A DNA stretch of 64,000 nt, taken from a phage. The notes under the pieces were generated by a model. That model was not told the DNA's origin. It saw only the letters and a program-made list of their open reading frames with translations, and did no database searches. The translations under genes and the position numbers were made by a program. Positions 44,191-48,647 of the stretch are shown here, piece by piece (within the stretch, counting starts at the first letter, position 1; every line of letters begins with the position of its first letter). The DNA lies in the sequence record PZ445427.1. One strand, given 5' to 3'.

Positions 44191-44424
44191 TTACGATTCT
44201 TTGAGCAAAGAAGCAAGTTCAGCATAGACTTTATCTAACTCAAAGCCAATGCGAAGAGACACACGAGTCTTCCGTTGTTTAAGTAACCATATGGAGACGT
44301 TAGGGATGCCAGCGAGACGAGGTGGTACAACCCTACATAGTTTCTCCGCAGTATCGTAAACAGAAGTTTTACGTTCTTTTACGGGAAACTTCCTTGTTTC
44401 CCACTTTTTATTCTTCGCTGTCAT
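44191..44424 (-). CDS. Hypothetical small basic protein
   Basis: ORF starting MTAKNKKWETRK..., overlapping the stop of the upstream large gene by about 17 nt. Confidence 0.35.
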   Translation of the reverse strand: MTAKNKKWETRKFPVKERKTSVYDTAEKLCRVVPPRLAGIPNVSIWLLKQRKTRVSLRIGFELDKVYAELASLLKES

Positions 44425-47197
44425 TTCTAGCCCCCAATTCAGCAAGAGCTTCCTCATGCATCTGACGTTCTTCATCTGTCATAAACTTAACTGGAATCGG
44501 CATACATTCGATCTTACAGTAAGTTCTGTACCAGTCCACAATCTTTTCCGTATCCAGATCTTTACCGATACCCATCATGCCAAGATACATACGAGCATAT
44601 TTTGGGTTAGCGCTCTGACCTGTCTTAAGGAAGAAATCCTTCTTCTTATTCTTAAGAGCTTCGATAAACGGTTTGATTGTTACGTTTGAACACTTTTTAA
44701 TATCTTCCCAGAACATGTCGTGCATCTTATGGAAGAATGCAGCTCTATCGTTTGGTTTATCCTTGATATACTGTTCAACGTGTTCCACTGTTACATCTTT
44801 AATAGAATCCAGATGATAATAGCGAACCAGAAGTAACTTGGCTTCATAGGCATCTGCATGACGTGGTGCACAATATTCAGGAGTTGAGTGCAAAATAGCT
44901 TTGATTCGCTCTTCTGTATACTCTTTTCCTGCACCTTCGATAGTTCCCCAGCTTTCGCTGAAAATATCGATAGTTGCACCCTGATCAAGCAGATAATAAC
45001 GCAAAGTACTAGTATAGTTTCTAGATTCCAGCTCACGACGACGTGCGTACAGTTGTTGGGCTAACTCAATCCAACCTTCGTCAATATTATATTGCTCGGA
45101 ACCCGCAGAAAATCCACTCGTAGATTTATCAATAAAATAATAAATGTTCTGAGCACCACGGTCGCGCCTGATTGCTTGAAAACGCATGTTTGGCGCTTGG
45201 TTTGAGGTTCGAGTGATAACAAATACGTTATCAAAATAGTTAAAGTCAACACCACTTGTTACAGATGGACTACATAATAAACAATCAATCTGTTGATCAA
45301 TTAGCTCATTAGTTGTATAATCCAGAATACGACGGATATCTACATCAGACGTAGAGTTTGAGTGAATTTCTTTAACTAACGCACCTGTATTACGACGTAA
45401 TGCCATTCCCTTTTCATTCAGTTCATCCGGTCCACAGTCAGATACTAGGATTGATTTCTCACCCATCTCTAGAGATGTTTGAAGTGCAACCCAAATACTG
45501 GATTCGTCAGGGAATTCATAAGCGTGAGCTTTCGCCAGCATTTTACGGTGGTGATTATAAAATGCGACTGGTTTATCAAAATCAATCAAAGAACCATAGG
45601 CTTCAATCGTTTCTGCACTGATATCACCATCAGATAAGATCACCGTTTTAGCAGTAATAAGAATATCGCGAAGAACCTGTATACATTCACGACGGTTTTT
45701 AACAACCGGAGCGAATAACAGATCATTCATTACTGCGTCACATTCATCAATAAAGATCGTATCAATCTGACCCACAAAGCTCTTGAACTTATGGATAGAG
45801 TGAATAGTTGAAGACATACGATCAATGGCACCACGTTTGAAGTTCAGCATATCAACTGACTTATCATACTGACCAGCACTGAATTTCTTCGCGTTTGAAG
45901 ATACAAGTGCCCTAGTATTCGTGATTGCAATAAAGTTTCCTGGAAGAACACCTGCATCTAGCCACTTAGTTACTGCTGTGGTTTTACCTGTACCAAGACT
46001 TGCCTTAACAAATGTTAAATGTCCTTTTGGTGGTACAATGTTAATTTTCAGGTATGGAACTTCTGGTGGAGAATCTGTATCCAGACGTTTTAATGGTACG
46101 CCTTTTAAGTTGGGCGGAATCTCACGTTTGGAGTTATTTACAAAGGCTTTGAGAGCCTGCTTACGACCGTTATTAAAGTAATCTTGAATATTACGACTAT
46201 TATCTTTAGTTGCAATATATTCAGATAAAGCTGGTTTAATCTCACGTTCTAACCACGTAAAGTCAACACCATCTTCTAACGCTCTGTGATAAAGTTTTGG
46301 GATAATACGCAGGTACACCCCATCCTCAGCTTCTTCTAGTTCGCTGATGGTTTCTTCCACTTTATCAGATGCAGCCTTCTTGCCTTTAATTTGGTCAAGT
46401 AAGGAGTAGAATTCTTCTTTAAACTCACCTCTAGTTGTTTCAAAGTCAACTAGGTTATTGGGTAGATTCACTTTCGAACCCTTAACATACACAAGACGTG
46501 GTTTATTCTCCGCTTTAAACGGATCGACTATACCATCATCAAATAAGGGATCTGCGAAATAGTGAAGCTGAACAGAAGAATAATAAGCTAAGTCAGCAAT
46601 ATCAAAGCCATACTTTTGCTTACTACTGTCATTGATGGATGTAAATAAGAATTTTAATTGCCCCTGCGTTACCTTGACATTAGATTCTAGCATTAAGTGC
46701 ATTCGGATACCTGGTTTTAATCCAGCCGAAGACGATGCATGAGCAATAAACCCTGCATCAAGAGGAAACATATCCTCACTAATACTATTCAACATCTTAA
46801 TAATATGACGTGCCATGCCAACAAGATTAAACTTGTCATAGCCACCAGTATCTACAATACCATCCACGTCCATAGCGATAATATGACTAGGATTGGATAC
46901 GTTAAAGTTTCCTCTGGTACGACGCACATTATCTTTTGGGGCTAGACATTTACCACGAATAGCTACAATATGCGGGTCTTTGGTAAGACGACGCATGATA
47001 GGTAACATTTCAGCAAGGTTTTGCGGGTCAAGTTCTTCAAGTACATCAAATTTGAAGGGCATGGAAGCTGGTTTACCTTCTGGATGCTCTTTAGAGAATC
47101 GCTTTGCAAAGGTGTAATCTTCCACTTTGATCTCTTTCCAGATGCCAGTGGCTTTATCTCTGGAAAATCCTGCGTGACCTTGTAGGATTGAGAACAC
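44408..47197 (-). CDS. Large replication-associated P-loop ATPase / SF2 helicase-like protein (putative origin-binding or replication initiation helicase)
   Basis: Walker A KASLGTGKTT and DExD-like Walker B IFIDECD in the middle of a 930-970 aa protein; track start is 47320, but the first 41 codons are Cys/Asn-rich low complexity; an in-frame GTG at 47197 has an AGGAG RBS at 7-nt spacing. Confidence 0.55.
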   Translation of the reverse strand: MFSILQGHAGFSRDKATGIWKEIKVEDYTFAKRFSKEHPEGKPASMPFKFDVLEELDPQNLAEMLPIMRRLTKDPHIVAIRGKCLAPKDNVRRTRGNFNVSNPSHIIAMDVDGIVDTGGYDKFNLVGMARHIIKMLNSISEDMFPLDAGFIAHASSSAGLKPGIRMHLMLESNVKVTQGQLKFLFTSINDSSKQKYGFDIADLAYYSSVQLHYFADPLFDDGIVDPFKAENKPRLVYVKGSKVNLPNNLVDFETTRGEFKEEFYSLLDQIKGKKAASDKVEETISELEEAEDGVYLRIIPKLYHRALEDGVDFTWLEREIKPALSEYIATKDNSRNIQDYFNNGRKQALKAFVNNSKREIPPNLKGVPLKRLDTDSPPEVPYLKINIVPPKGHLTFVKASLGTGKTTAVTKWLDAGVLPGNFIAITNTRALVSSNAKKFSAGQYDKSVDMLNFKRGAIDRMSSTIHSIHKFKSFVGQIDTIFIDECDAVMNDLLFAPVVKNRRECIQVLRDILITAKTVILSDGDISAETIEAYGSLIDFDKPVAFYNHHRKMLAKAHAYEFPDESSIWVALQTSLEMGEKSILVSDCGPDELNEKGMALRRNTGALVKEIHSNSTSDVDIRRILDYTTNELIDQQIDCLLCSPSVTSGVDFNYFDNVFVITRTSNQAPNMRFQAIRRDRGAQNIYYFIDKSTSGFSAGSEQYNIDEGWIELAQQLYARRRELESRNYTSTLRYYLLDQGATIDIFSESWGTIEGAGKEYTEERIKAILHSTPEYCAPRHADAYEAKLLLVRYYHLDSIKDVTVEHVEQYIKDKPNDRAAFFHKMHDMFWEDIKKCSNVTIKPFIEALKNKKKDFFLKTGQSANPKYARMYLGMMGIGKDLDTEKIVDWYRTYCKIECMPIPVKFMTDEERQMHEEALAELGARNDSEE

Positions 47198-47693
47198 AAC
47201 AATACTCCTATGTTGGTTATTCGGATATCTTTCTTTAGGACTATTCAAAAGAATAGAACAACTATTACTACCATTTACACAAACATTAATCATCATCAAG
47301 CAGTATGAATAAGTTATCATACCTCAGTGCTGCGCTCTCTTAACTCTTATCCAGATCAGAACCTAGGTCATTGGCCGCTAAGCCGATTCTGATTGCCCTC
47401 ACTATCCTATTGGTAGGTGGCTACTGGACGTGTCACCATTCGCTGCTCTTTTCGTTCGCACCCCCATATAAAGCTCTGCCTATATAACGAGCTAAATATG
47501 CACGGTTTGGATTTACCTTTCCGAATTCAGGGTACGCAGATCACTTAATTGATAATTAACTAATGCAGTATAAACACTAGTAATAGTTAAAACAACCCTT
47601 AATGGGGCAGCCTAACTGTTCCGTATTGCGGATTGTAAACAAGAAAAATTAGCAAAATCAATTTTTACTAATGTCTCTCAATTCAATATAAAT

Positions 47694-47722
47694 ATTATAT
47701 CAAGATTTTGAGCATCCTGCAA
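47694..47722 (-). promoter_or_regulatory. Sigma70 promoter with no adjacent ORF, heading into the long untranslated region
   Basis: On the - strand TTGCAG, 17-nt spacer, TATAAT, followed by ATTTATATTGAATTGAGAGAC leader; next credible start codon is 370-500 nt downstream. Confidence 0.5.
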
Positions 47723-47760: not shown

Positions 47761-47790
47761 ACAGAGAAAACCGAGCCAAAATGACTCGGT
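47761..47790 (-). terminator. Intrinsic terminator at the end of the Sir2-like operon
   Basis: On the - strand hairpin ACCGAG-TCATTTTGG-CTCGGT followed by TTTTCTCTG. Confidence 0.55.
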
Positions 47791-47813: not shown

Positions 47814-48209
47814 TCAATCATCATTTAGGCCTGGAACATAGATCCCAATGCGATTTAATTGACCTTTAGCTTCTTCGAGAATATCTTCGGTGTACTCCCA
47901 AATATCATCTTCTACTTGCAAAAGATAAGGGGATTCACCAGTTTCGGGGTCACGTGTAATGGCTAAGCCACGTGGATGGAATATAGAGAAGTTGAGGGCA
48001 ACAATCAAGCCCATACTGGACAATTCATTCCAGTCAGCTTCCCAACCATCATCTTCATCTTCGTCCACAAAGACACCTACACTAGGGTCTGTTACAGAAG
48101 TAAACGGAAATGTTACACTAACCTTGTCAACCCCCAACCAACGTGCAAGGAGCCCTTCAGCACGCTCTACCAAACTAGGATCTATCTGACGCCAAAATAC
48201 TTGTTCCAT
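47814..48209 (-). CDS. Hypothetical protein, tandem paralog 2
   Basis: 131 aa; shares motif pattern W.EL..MGL..ALN..F.P.......TGE.P...V......Y..E......L.R.G...PGL with the 142-aa upstream ORF. Confidence 0.5.
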   Translation of the reverse strand: MEQVFWRQIDPSLVERAEGLLARWLGVDKVSVTFPFTSVTDPSVGVFVDEDEDDGWEADWNELSSMGLIVALNFSIFHPRGLAITRDPETGESPYLLQVEDDIWEYTEDILEEAKGQLNRIGIYVPGLNDD

Positions 48210-48218
48210 TCTGCCTCC

Positions 48219-48647
48219 TTAAGCAGTTAAACCTGGGATCATATACCCGAAACGACGAAGTTTCTGAATCCCCTCATTTACTTCTTCGGGCGAATATGAC
48301 CAGCCCTCACGTTCATTTACCTGGAAAGCAGGAGCTTCACCAGTGCGATAGTTTACAATAAGACGGTGATTTGCAGGCATAAACAGCTTATGGTTCAAGG
48401 CAAAAACCAGACCCATTTCATCGAGTTCTTTCCAGTCTACAATTTCTTCTACTCCCTCACCTAAATCCACGCTAACTCCAATACATGGAGCTTCCTCTAG
48501 TGGGCCTTTAAAGGATAGGAAGATATCGTTATTCTCACACCAAATCTTAAGCAGATTGATGGTTTCATTATACATACCATTAGGGAGAGAACGCCAGAAG
48601 TTGAGGAGCATAGGGTTTACCTCTTTCATGAAAAGATTATCGAACAT
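48219..48647 (-). CDS. Hypothetical protein, tandem paralog 1
   Basis: 142 aa; paralogous to 47814-48209. Confidence 0.5.
   Translation of the reverse strand: MFDNLFMKEVNPMLLNFWRSLPNGMYNETINLLKIWCENNDIFLSFKGPLEEAPCIGVSVDLGEGVEEIVDWKELDEMGLVFALNHKLFMPANHRLIVNYRTGEAPAFQVNEREGWSYSPEEVNEGIQKLRRFGYMIPGLTA

What the first reader, a model, noticed from the sequence alone, without database searches (positions are those of the whole stretch)
47321..47693. Long GC-enriched untranslated segment between a sigma70 promoter and the next gene: candidate structured RNA, leader or origin
A sigma70 promoter on the minus strand (TTGCAG-17-TATAAT, about 47694-47722) is followed by the usual T5-type leader motif (TTGAGAGAC) but no start codon. 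The next credible start is 370-500 nt downstream (47320, or the RBS-supported GTG at 47197). The segment 47330-47470 is clearly more GC-rich than the surrounding AT-rich intergenic DNA and contains several complementary stretches (for example ATCAGAA/TTCTGAT and GGTG/CACC arms, and a CCTAGG palindrome). Only tiny ORFs (about 10-21 codons) occur. This is unlike the other compact promoter-RBS-ATG units in the window. It could be a small regulatory RNA, a structured 5' leader controlling the 970-aa replication ATPase, or a replication origin next to a putative origin-binding helicase.
Basis: seen in the sequence. Interest (0 to 1): 0.55.

Follow-up and report, generated by a model that had tools for sequence, protein, structure and literature searches.

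The report
Conserved structured leader RNA before helicase
The roughly 490-base untranslated stretch between an early promoter and the replication-helicase gene of this T5-like phage folds into a large RNA structure that evolution has preserved, it matches no catalogued RNA family, and it most likely controls or assists the helicase gene downstream.

Summary
The window is a T5-like phage, 100% identical to Salmonella phage beppo. On the minus strand, terminator 47790-47770 and promoter TTGCAG-17-TATAAT (47722-47694) are followed by about 490 nt without a conserved ORF. The gene for the T5 D2 "origin-binding" helicase then starts at GTG 47197. The ATGs at 47320 and 47293 are over-extensions.

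The leader is a conserved structured RNA:
- a 5' hairpin;
- an invariant motif, AUACGGAACAGUnnGGCUGC;
- an AU-rich rod of about 40 bp;
- an invariant C-UUAGCG-G hairpin loop;
- a small 3' hairpin, then the Shine-Dalgarno sequence.

Two independent alignments show 96% pairing. Compensatory changes occur at 38 and 53 base pairs, against 9-12 in shuffles. G·U pairs far outnumber A·C pairs, so the sense transcript is the folded strand. The leader diverges half as fast as the adjacent coding DNA. Rfam 15, the T5 GenBank annotations and the literature searches contain nothing on it.

Function is inferred, not shown. Cis control or processing of the helicase mRNA is the most likely role. A replication R-loop or primer RNA, or a processed stable RNA, remain possible. 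I rate it a new RNA family of a known kind, of moderate to high interest.

The parts
47770..47790 (-). Intrinsic terminator of the upstream DUF7415 gene pair. It isolates the leader as the start of its own transcription unit.
   Evidence: 9-bp stem with 5 GC pairs, followed by a T-run. Annotated as a terminator in T5.
47694..47722 (-). Sigma-70 early promoter: -35 TTGCAG (47722-47717), 17-nt spacer, -10 TATAAT (47699-47694). The inferred transcription start is about 47687.
   Evidence: Read from the sequence. The homologous site is annotated as promoter T5P32 in T5 records. The transcription start is inferred, not mapped.
47198..47690 (-). The whole untranslated leader RNA of about 490 nt. Positions are counted from UUGAGAG at 47681 as position 1.
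47641..47679 (-). P1, a 5'-terminal hairpin of 16 bp with 3 G·U pairs. Every lineage has a long hairpin here, with a different interior sequence.
47602..47626 (-). Almost invariant 5' motif, AUACGGAACAGUUAGGCUGCCCCAU. It contains the small CAGU/GCUG helix.
   Evidence: invariant columns 56-80; helix 2. It occurs once per genome, and in IMG/VR only in T5-like contigs.
47542..47589 (-). 5' strand of the long AU-rich rod: helices 47589-47570, 47566-47549 and 47545-47542.
   Evidence: Compensatory changes are counted (helices 3-6; helix 4).
47259..47329 (-). 3' strand of the rod (47329-47326, 47299-47283, 47278-47259), interrupted by a side hairpin at 47323-47302.
   Evidence: The side hairpin covaries (helix 17; helix 17).
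47330..47539 (-). Core domain of 210 nt, closed by helix Pc: CUGCGU at 47539-47534 pairs with GCGCAG at 47335-47330.
   Evidence: Pc reads CUGCG/CGCAG, CUGUG/CACAG, CUACA/UGUAG, CUGUA/UACAG, CCAUA/UAUGG or CUAGAA/UUCUAG in different lineages. Core length is 206-218 nt in seven lineages.
47460..47533 (-). Core subdomain I: stem ACCCU/GGGGU enclosing hairpins Ia (47523-47503) and Ib (47500-47465).
   Evidence: helices 7-10.
47430..47459 (-). Hairpin II with a GAAA-rich loop (47459-47445), followed by the purine-rich joiner GAAUGGUGACAC. The joiner reads GAGAAGUGA in most other lineages.
47349..47429 (-). Core subdomain III. The outer stem is GUCCAG/CUGGAU. Hairpin IIIa lies at 47421-47395. The UUAGCG module lies at 47393-47355: stem AUCAGAAUC/GGUUCUGAU, a 3' internal loop, and the GGC-UUAGCG-GCC hairpin with its loop at 47381-47376.
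   Evidence: 4 and 5 compensatory pairs; the outer stem sequence is different in all 10 lineages, and the loop is invariant.
47241..47256 (-). Small 3' hairpin, CUAUUC-UUUU-GAAUAG.
   Evidence: helix 18.
47205..47240 (-). UCCU (47240-47237) is a possible anti-Shine-Dalgarno element. The Shine-Dalgarno sequence AGGAG lies at 47209-47205.
   Evidence: predicts UCCU/AGGA pairing, but it is invariant, so covariation cannot test it. In the thermodynamic ensemble the Shine-Dalgarno region is 0.67 unpaired.
44408..47197 (-). Downstream gene: the T5 D2 'replication origin binding' bipolar SF2 helicase, 929 aa, starting at GTG 47197.
   Evidence: conserved N-terminus V/M-F-S/T-I-L; PF02399, 22.5 bits.

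Best explanation
The segment is the 5' leader of the mRNA for the D2 / origin-binding helicase. It is transcribed from an early sigma-70 promoter and folds into a large conserved RNA structure.

The structure, from 5' to 3', is:
- a 5'-terminal hairpin;
- an invariant single-stranded motif;
- an AU-rich rod of about 40 bp with a side hairpin;
- a multi-helix core of about 210 nt with invariant loop and junction nucleotides (UUAGCG, a GAAA-rich loop, GAGAAGUGA-type joiner);
- a small 3' hairpin next to the ribosome-binding site.

Shown here: the RNA structure is under purifying selection in the sense strand. It is not protein-coding. It is a new family.

Inferred: it acts in cis on expression of the helicase gene it always precedes. 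The core would serve as a binding platform for a protein (possibly D2 itself) or a small ligand. The long rod may be an RNase III processing site that sets mRNA stability or translation.
For: Conservation and position
- The region is found in 536 phage records.
- Leader length from UUGAGAG to the start codon is 484-488 nt in most Markadamsvirinae relatives (those without the optional insertion), 463 nt in My1 and 476 nt in Sugarland.
- It is always immediately upstream of the helicase gene and in the same orientation.
- Homing-endonuclease genes and the 90-nt module insert only 5' of the conserved motif, never between the core and the gene.

Structure
- Sense-strand MFE z = -4.40.
- Type-2 alignment A4: 103 pairs, 96.6% of cells paired, 53 pairs with changes on both sides. 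Shuffles give 12.0 +/- 2.6 (0/500 reach the observed value). Slid controls give 7-17.
- Type-1 alignment A5, which contains the window: 97 pairs, 96.0% paired, 38 compensatory pairs. Shuffles give 8.7 +/- 2.4 (0/500). Slid controls give 3-9.
- Helix Pc has six different complementary sequence versions.
- The outer stem of the UUAGCG module differs in all 10 lineages.

Strand
- G·U makes up 12-16% of paired cells, A·C about 1%.
- RNAalifold gives -66/-68 kcal/mol for the sense strand and -58/-51 for the antisense strand.
- Antisense MFE z = -2.26.

Not coding
- ORFs differ between lineages.
- Window-versus-T5 substitutions fall 11/14/11 by position modulo 3. In the adjacent gene they fall 21/14/92 by codon position.
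- Divergence is 7.4% in the leader and 14.1% in the gene.
- The true start is GTG 47197.

Context
- The unit has its own terminator and promoter.
- Distant T5-like phages also have long non-coding gaps of 430-1600 nt before this gene. JSF10 has a TTGACA-17-TATACT promoter followed by 1060 nt. Vibrio 70E34-1a has tandem terminators just before the gene.
Against: - No expression platform could be demonstrated. [quoted passage not shown]
- The Shine-Dalgarno region is predicted to be 0.45-0.67 unpaired in most lineages.
- Pairing of the 5' motif with the translation-initiation region is no better than shuffles in most lineages.
- The UCCU/AGGA pairing is invariant and therefore untested.
- Transcription, RNA ends and any ligand or protein partner are unverified.
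- The structures were predicted on the same alignments used for counting, which inflates the pairing percentages. It inflates the compensatory counts much less.
- Cores of type 1 and type 2 cannot be aligned by sequence. A covariance model of type-2 subdomain III does not score the window. A common architecture across the two types therefore rests on my manual mapping.
Confidence: 0.55

Rival explanations
1. Replication-initiation RNA or origin. The promoter-driven structured transcript forms an R-loop or primer at or near an origin next to the initiator helicase gene. Precedents are ColE1 RNA II, T4 oriF/oriG and herpesvirus oriLyt RNAs. The D2 helicase would be loaded there.
For: - The element sits directly upstream of the gene for the UL9-like helicase (PF02399), which has been proposed as the T5 replication initiator (PMC3632103).
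- A strong early promoter drives a long non-coding transcript.
- AT-rich flanks (29% GC) surround a GC-richer core.
- The T5 origin has never been mapped to sequence.
- One GTTCGCAC UL9-type box lies at 47454-47461.
Against: - There is no GC-skew inflection at 47.3 kb. The switches at about 26 and 55 kb follow gene orientation.
- No iterons or repeated boxes are present.
- The UL9 box is at chance level: 2 in the window against 0.8 expected, with 17 of 100 shuffles reaching 2. It is absent from type-2 leaders.
- Recombitron strand bias suggests dominant unidirectional replication from a genome end in T5 (PMC10055335).
- Selection acts on RNA pairing that includes G·U pairs. That is not itself incompatible with a primer RNA.
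Confidence: 0.15
2. Independent stable non-coding RNA. The core is excised from the leader, for example by RNase III cutting the rod. It then acts in trans as a decoy, scaffold or anti-defence RNA, and its position before the helicase gene is incidental.
For: - The rod is a long imperfect duplex of 19 + 16 + 4 bp that closes a compact core. This geometry is typical of RNase III substrates, by established knowledge.
- The core has a strictly conserved size and invariant loops.
- In Vibrio 70E34-1a the gap ends in terminator hairpins before the gene. I also read a terminator-like hairpin before the gene in Aeromonas TS3, though the scan did not flag it.
Against: - It is never found away from the helicase gene, and occurs once per genome.
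- No terminator follows the core in the window's lineage.
- No evidence of processing is available.
Confidence: 0.15
3. Catalytic RNA, meaning a self-cleaving or other ribozyme embedded in the leader.
For: The core is large, with many invariant unpaired nucleotides and a conserved length.
Against: There is no match to any Rfam ribozyme, even at E <= 10. No recognisable catalytic core motif was seen. The two core types differ considerably.
Confidence: 0.05
4. No RNA function. The segment would be spacer DNA, a decayed mobile-element remnant, or DNA-level inverted repeats, with apparent structure arising from base composition and shared ancestry.
For: Homing-endonuclease genes and a 90-nt module insert nearby in some relatives. 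Related sequences can beat shuffle controls without any structure, as the tool's own caveat states.
Against: - Compensatory pairs number 38-53, against 3-17 in slid controls, which preserve phylogeny.
- Independent lineages have entirely different stem sequences in the same positions.
- There is a strong G·U over A·C asymmetry.
- The leader evolves at half the rate of the adjacent gene, and at about a quarter of the rate of third codon positions.
Confidence: 0.03
5. A small protein is encoded on either strand. Candidates are the 43-aa and 38-aa plus-strand ORFs, the 21-codon sense ORFs, or an N-terminal extension of the helicase from ATG 47320 or 47293.
For: ORFs exist at 47417-47548 (+), 47371-47487 (+) and 44408-47320 (-). 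The beppo record annotates the start at the position of 47293.
Against: - ORF positions and lengths differ in every lineage.
- Substitutions show no 3-nt periodicity.
- T5 and phiR2-01 have no in-frame upstream start codon, and My1 has a stop directly upstream.
- The N-terminus is conserved from GTG/ATG at the position of 47197, which has an AGGAG Shine-Dalgarno sequence 7 nt upstream.
Confidence: 0.02

Closest known systems
Large structured cis-regulatory 5' leaders (riboswitch-type aptamers such as cobalamin, lysine or T-box, and protein-binding autoregulatory leaders such as T4 gene 32/43 operators and ribosomal-protein leaders)
   Same: It lies in the 5' UTR directly before one gene. It has a compact multi-helix domain supported by covariation, with invariant loop and junction nucleotides. 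Its size and position are conserved.
   Different: It matches none of the 4227 Rfam models. No terminator or clear Shine-Dalgarno-sequestering expression platform was found. The ligand or protein partner is unknown. It is unusually long, about 330 nt of structured domain in a 490-nt leader. It occurs in two core variants that cannot be aligned by sequence.
RNase III-processed leaders (E. coli rnc and pnp leaders, T7 early-mRNA R sites, lambda N leader)
   Same: A long imperfect duplex of more than 20 bp lies in a phage or bacterial 5' leader, upstream of the ribosome-binding site.
   Different: Cleavage is not shown. Here the duplex closes a 210-nt conserved core instead of a simple loop.
Origin transcripts: ColE1 RNA II, T4 ori(uvsY)/ori(34) R-loop RNAs, HCMV and EBV oriLyt RNAs
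   Same: A promoter-driven, structured, non-coding RNA of several hundred nucleotides lies next to replication functions. The adjacent protein resembles herpes UL9.
   Different: No origin activity, R-loop, skew signal or binding-site repeats are known or detected here. The transcript continues into an mRNA.
Large ornate phage-associated ncRNAs (GOLLD, ROOL) and the plasmid replication-region RNA ARRPOF
   Same: These are large, conserved, covarying RNAs of unknown function carried by mobile elements.
   Different: There are no Rfam matches; the ARRPOF 'hit' scores 12 bits against a 127-bit threshold. It is not next to tRNA clusters: the window has no tRNA gene. It is smaller, restricted to T5-like phages, and fixed in an mRNA leader.

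Membership tests
Any Rfam 15 family | Covariance-model score at or above the family's gathering threshold | tested here: not met
   Searches gave no match in the leader of the window or of 10 relatives, even at E <= 1-10. The only nearby hit (Hrs1, 19.8 bits against 56.4) is the upstream terminator on the other strand.
Structured RNA element (generic) | Base pairs maintained by compensatory substitutions beyond phylogeny-preserving controls | tested here: met
   Searches found 53 and 38 pairs with changes on both sides. Slid controls gave 7-17 and 3-9. No shuffle out of 500 reached the observed values.
Structured RNA element (generic) | Strand specificity (G·U tolerated, A·C not) | tested here: met
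   G·U 12-16%, A·C 1%; the sense strand folds better than the antisense strand.
Riboswitch or attenuator-type leader | Conserved aptamer-like domain in the 5' UTR of the regulated gene | tested here: met
Riboswitch or attenuator-type leader | Expression platform: an intrinsic terminator or mutually exclusive Shine-Dalgarno sequestration | tested here: inconclusive
   No terminator lies after the core. UCCU/AGGA pairing is predicted but invariant. The Shine-Dalgarno region is 0.45-0.67 unpaired in most lineages. Tandem terminators occur before the gene only in a distant Vibrio phage.
Riboswitch or attenuator-type leader | Specific ligand binding that changes gene expression | not testable with these tools
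   Requires in-line or SHAPE probing and reporter assays.
RNase III-processed leader | Imperfect RNA duplex of about two helical turns or more | tested here: met
   19-bp, 16-bp and 4-bp helices stack into the rod. The rod is conserved with compensatory changes.
RNase III-processed leader | Cleavage in vivo that depends on rnc | not testable with these tools
   Needs end mapping in rnc+ and rnc- hosts.
R-loop or primer origin (ColE1 RNA II, T4 oriF/G type) | Promoter followed by a transcript over a DNA-unwinding or AT-rich element | tested here: inconclusive
   The promoter is present and AT-rich flanks have 29% GC. The AT-rich parts, however, form the RNA rod that shows covariation.
R-loop or primer origin (ColE1 RNA II, T4 oriF/G type) | Replication starts here (copy-number peak, skew switch, R-loop) | tested here: not met
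   There is no cumulative-skew inflection at 47.3 kb. This is only a weak test, and direct mapping is not possible with these tools.
Herpes-type origin (UL9 boxes) | Two or more inverted GTTCGCAC boxes flanking an AT-rich spacer, conserved among relatives | tested here: not met
   a single box at 47454-47461, at chance frequency. It is absent from type-2 leaders.
Protein-coding small gene | ORF conserved in position and frame, with substitutions showing codon periodicity | tested here: not met
GOLLD / ROOL-type large phage ncRNA | Match to the family model, with the usual association with tRNA clusters | tested here: not met
   no match; no tRNA gene in the 64-kb window.

The most novel reading that the evidence does not exclude
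The RNA is not a simple regulatory leader. Either it is an RNA component of T5 replication initiation, as an R-loop, primer or loading platform used by the bipolar D2 helicase encoded just downstream. Or it represents a new class of large riboswitch or ribozyme that gates expression of a phage replication initiator. The first case would finally locate a T5 origin at sequence level.
Probability: 0.25. Interest if true: 0.85.

Novelty: new member of a known kind. Interest (0 to 1): 0.6.

Why it matters
T5 is a classical model phage, yet three GenBank annotations of T5 leave this 470-nt gap blank, and its replication origin and the control of its initiator helicase are unknown. A large RNA supported by covariation, fixed in front of the D2 helicase gene in the enterobacterial T5-like phages examined, gives a concrete and mutable target. 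Candidate sites are helix Pc, the UUAGCG loop and the rod. These can be used to test how a virulent phage sets the level or site of action of its replication initiator. The element would also add a new family to the RNA catalogues and correct start-codon annotations of this gene in many T5-like genomes, several of which are used for phage therapy or biocontrol.

Tried and rejected
- Rfam at permissive thresholds, on the window and 10 relatives, found nothing.
- tRNA/tmRNA scan: none in the window.
- Repeat search for iterons: only short chance pairs, plus the arms of the RNA rod.
- The gapped pattern AGAAGTG-N55-85-CTTAGCGG in IMG/VR was non-specific. Its hits were a coding sequence of an unrelated abundant phage and scattered chance matches. 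Only My1 was a true hit.
- The 5'-motif pattern in bacterial genomes gave 29 hits in unrelated taxa. I estimate about 70 chance matches for 17 specified bases in 596 Gb, so there is no evidence for the RNA outside phages.
- A covariance model of type-2 subdomain III recovers Sugarland (E about 1e-5). It does not recover the window, T5, PR1, Kamaji or the Vibrio and Aeromonas phages. Homology of the long gaps in distant genera therefore remains untested.
- Shine-Dalgarno sequestration and 5'-motif/start-codon pairing: no consistent signal.
- HSV UL9 box: coincidence.
- GC-skew origin signal: none.
- Literature searches for a T5 leader RNA, a mapped origin or phage structured RNAs found nothing relevant. 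The anti-retron 'Rad' paper concerns a protein in the tRNA region. The 1976 origin-mapping paper is not held in the library.
- The metagenome scan added only 10 loci.

Full report
**What the window is.** The 701 bases around the finding are 100% identical to Salmonella phage beppo (Epseptimavirus, Demerecviridae). They match 536 phage records, all T5-like. The genes here run on the minus strand. Two DUF7415 genes lie upstream (48647-48219 and 48209-47814). The long gene downstream is annotated 'replication origin binding protein'. It is the homologue of T5 D2 (T5.108), a bipolar SF2 helicase proposed as the replication initiator (PMC3632103).

**Checking the observation.**
- The upstream operon ends in an intrinsic terminator at 47790-47770.
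- The promoter follows: TTGCAG at 47722-47717, a 17-nt spacer, then TATAAT at 47699-47694. T5 records annotate the homologous site as an early promoter, T5P32.
- The transcript would start near 47687 and begins with UUGAGAGAC.
- GC content is 0.46-0.52 across 47300-47499 and 0.28-0.33 on both sides.
- Only short ORFs occur.

The untranslated element is longer than stated, because the gene does not start at 47320.

**Where the gene starts.**
- In all 13 lineages examined the protein begins V/M-F-S/T-I-L at the position of GTG 47197 (L-F-S-I-L, from a TTG start, in the metagenomic locus L064). AGGAG lies 7 nt upstream of it.
- T5, phiR2-01 and My1 have no in-frame start codon upstream. A 1-nt indel separates the window from T5 inside the supposed extension.
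- The ATG at 47320 and the start annotated in beppo (47293) are over-extensions.
- The leader therefore spans about 47687 to 47198, roughly 490 nt.

**It is not coding.**
- ORFs of 20 aa or more differ in strand, place and length in every lineage.
- The 36 substitutions between the window and T5 fall 11/14/11 by position modulo 3. In the first 900 nt of the helicase gene, 127 substitutions fall 21/14/92 by codon position.
- The leader differs by 7.4% and the gene by 14.1%. The non-coding stretch is the more constrained of the two.

**It is a conserved RNA structure.**
- The sense transcript folds with MFE -141.5 kcal/mol, z = -4.40. The antisense strand gives -106.7 kcal/mol, z = -2.26.
- I collected relatives from IMG/VR, metagenomes and GenBank phages.
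- From UUGAGAG to the start codon the leader is 484-488 nt in most close relatives (about 97 nt longer where the optional insertion is present). It is 463 nt in My1 and 476 nt in Sugarland.
- BLAST shows something odd. The flanks are about 88% identical between the window and the DT57C-like Tequintaviruses. The central 240 nt do not align at all, yet have the same length.
- I therefore analysed two sets separately.
  - Type 2 contains 13 DT57C-like variants, metagenomic L064, L044 and Pectobacterium phage My1. RNAalifold predicts 103 pairs, and 96.6% of cells are paired. Changes on both sides occur at 53 pairs. Shuffles give 12.0 +/- 2.6 (0/500 reach the observed value), and structures slid by 1-3 columns give 7-17.
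  - Type 1 contains the window, T5 and its close relatives, phiR2-01 and Sugarland. It gives 97 pairs, 96.0% paired and 38 compensatory pairs. Shuffles give 8.7 +/- 2.4 (0/500) and slid controls give 3-9.
- G·U pairs make up 12-16% of paired cells and A·C about 1%. Consensus folding favours the sense strand. Selection therefore acts on the transcript of the minus strand.
- Caveat: the structures were predicted on the alignments on which they were counted. The slid controls and the independent lineages address this only in part.

**Architecture, in window coordinates.**
- P1 is a hairpin at 47679-47641. Every lineage has a long hairpin here with a different interior sequence.
- The motif AUACGGAACAGUUAGGCUGCCCCAU lies at 47626-47602 and is almost invariant.
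- An AU-rich rod pairs 47589-47542 with 47329-47259 and carries a side hairpin at 47323-47302.
- Helix Pc pairs 47539-47534 with 47335-47330 and closes the core. Its sequence is CUGCG/CGCAG in the window and CUGUG/CACAG in T5. Elsewhere it is CUACA/UGUAG, CUGUA/UACAG, CCAUA/UAUGG or CUAGAA/UUCUAG.
- The core is 206-218 nt in seven lineages.
- Inside the core are subdomain I (47533-47460), a hairpin with a GAAA-rich loop and a purine-rich joiner (47459-47430), and subdomain III (47429-47349).
- The last branch of subdomain III is a stem, a 3' internal loop and the hairpin GGC-UUAGCG-GCC. The loop is identical in all lineages, including Providencia PR1, L045 and Aeromonas TS3. The outer stem sequence is different in all ten lineages tabulated.
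- A small hairpin at 47256-47241 and the Shine-Dalgarno sequence follow.

**Is it known?**
- Rfam 15 finds nothing in the window or in ten relatives, even at permissive thresholds.
- Three T5 GenBank records leave the gap blank.
- My literature searches found no description.
- In IMG/VR the 5' motif occurs only in T5-like contigs, once per genome. Its 29 hits in bacterial genomes are fewer than the roughly 70 chance matches I estimate for a pattern of this size.

**What it does is inferred, not shown.** Cis action on the helicase gene is the simplest reading.
- The RNA is always directly upstream, in the same orientation and at a constant distance.
- Insertions in relatives fall only 5' of the conserved motif. 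These are homing-endonuclease genes and a 90-nt module.
- The unit has its own promoter and terminator.
- Distant T5-like phages of Vibrio, Aeromonas, Serratia and Klebsiella also have gaps of 430-1600 nt before this gene. One has a strong promoter followed by 1060 nt without a terminator. Another has two terminator hairpins just before the gene.

I could not show an expression platform.
- No terminator follows the core in the window.
- The Shine-Dalgarno region is predicted to be mostly accessible.
- The possible pairings UCCU/AGGA and GGAACA/UGUUC with the start region are either invariant or no better than shuffles.
- The rod has the geometry of an RNase III substrate. Processing is therefore a concrete possibility, but it is untested.

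**The rivals.**
- An origin or R-loop RNA is attractive because of the neighbouring UL9-like helicase. Against it, there is no skew inflection and there are no iterons. The single UL9-type box at 47454-47461 is at chance level and is absent from type-2 leaders. Recombitron data point to replication from a genome end in T5.
- A processed trans-acting RNA or a ribozyme cannot be excluded.
- Spacer DNA and small-protein readings are effectively ruled out.

**Limits.**
- Type 1 and type 2 share their flanks, the rod, Pc, the UUAGCG module and their core size.
- Their subdomains are not alignable, and a type-2 covariance model scores Sugarland (E about 1e-5) but not the window. The unified architecture is therefore my manual mapping.
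- Homology with the long gaps of distant genera is not established. They show only modest folding z-scores of about -2.

**Verdict.** This is a real RNA element supported by covariation and not previously catalogued. It is a new family of structured leader RNA in front of the replication-initiator helicase of T5-like phages. Its mechanism is open.

Noticed in passing
window 47293-47320 (and 44408-47197): The helicase gene start is over-extended in the ORF list (ATG 47320, 970 aa) and in the beppo record (the position of 47293). Other relatives are annotated at the position of 47296. The conserved start is GTG 47197, with an AGGAG Shine-Dalgarno sequence, as annotated in T5 and phiR2-01.
   Followed up: yes
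L016:1958-2055, L018, L033, L003:1654-1744; insertion site corresponds to window ~47641: An optional module of about 90 nt sits directly after hairpin P1, flanked by the direct repeat TTTTTCTT. It is present once per genome in 51 phage records scattered over type-1, type-2 and Epseptimavirus lineages. It folds as a self-closed unit, but its z-score is only -1.4. It has no Rfam match.
   Followed up: partly
L002:1675-2127 (mar003J3); also L012, L015, L025, L028: In some relatives a homing-endonuclease gene (annotated as such in mar003J3) or an insertion of comparable size lies between the upstream DUF7415 gene and the leader promoter. It replaces the terminator and -35 region but leaves the leader intact. 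T5 also has an HNH gene (hegI) right after the helicase gene.
   Followed up: partly
window 47530-47292 versus L017-L027:2167-2405: The RNA core exists in two forms of equal length that cannot be aligned by sequence. Type 1 is found in the window, T5 and phiR2-01. Type 2 is found in DT57C-like phages, My1, L044 and L064. The flanks are about 88% identical. This suggests either a module swap or very fast divergence under structural constraint.
   Followed up: partly
L038:869-1931 (Vibrio JSF10), L040:719-2308 (Aeromonas TS3), L037:1206-1916, L039:1273-2000, L036:1568-2000: All distant T5-like phages examined have long gaps of 430-1600 nt before the helicase gene, with up to 49% GC. These are either unannotated or filled with implausibly tiny ORFs. 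Folding z-scores are about -2. TS3 contains three CUUAGCGG or UUAGCGG sites. 70E34-1a has two terminator hairpins 85-130 nt before the gene.
   Followed up: partly
window 47454-47461 (+ strand): There is an exact match to the HSV-1 UL9 recognition core, GTTCGCAC, inside the leader core and next to a UL9-like helicase gene. The window has two copies against 0.8 expected, and the box is absent from type-2 leaders. It is most likely a coincidence.
   Followed up: yes
window 47654-47649 and 47381-47376: UGCUAA lies in the 3' arm of P1. In My1 and L044 it is single-stranded as UUUGCUAAU. It is complementary to the invariant loop UUAGCG, so a long-range contact is possible. Covariation cannot test this because both sequences are invariant.
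   Followed up: no
window 47258-47251 and 47197-47187: UGUUCUAU just after the rod resembles the start region GUGUUCUCAAU. Both are complementary to the conserved GGAACA at 47622-47617. This hints at alternative pairings, but it was not statistically supported.
   Followed up: partly
window 47814-48209 and 48219-48647 (minus strand): Two tandem paralogous genes encoding DUF7415 proteins (131 and 142 aa) lie immediately upstream of the leader's transcription unit.
   Followed up: no
window ~26000 and ~55000: Cumulative GC skew peaks near 26 kb and reaches its minimum near 55 kb. I attribute this to switches in gene orientation, which I did not check directly. There is no inflection at the leader.
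   Followed up: partly
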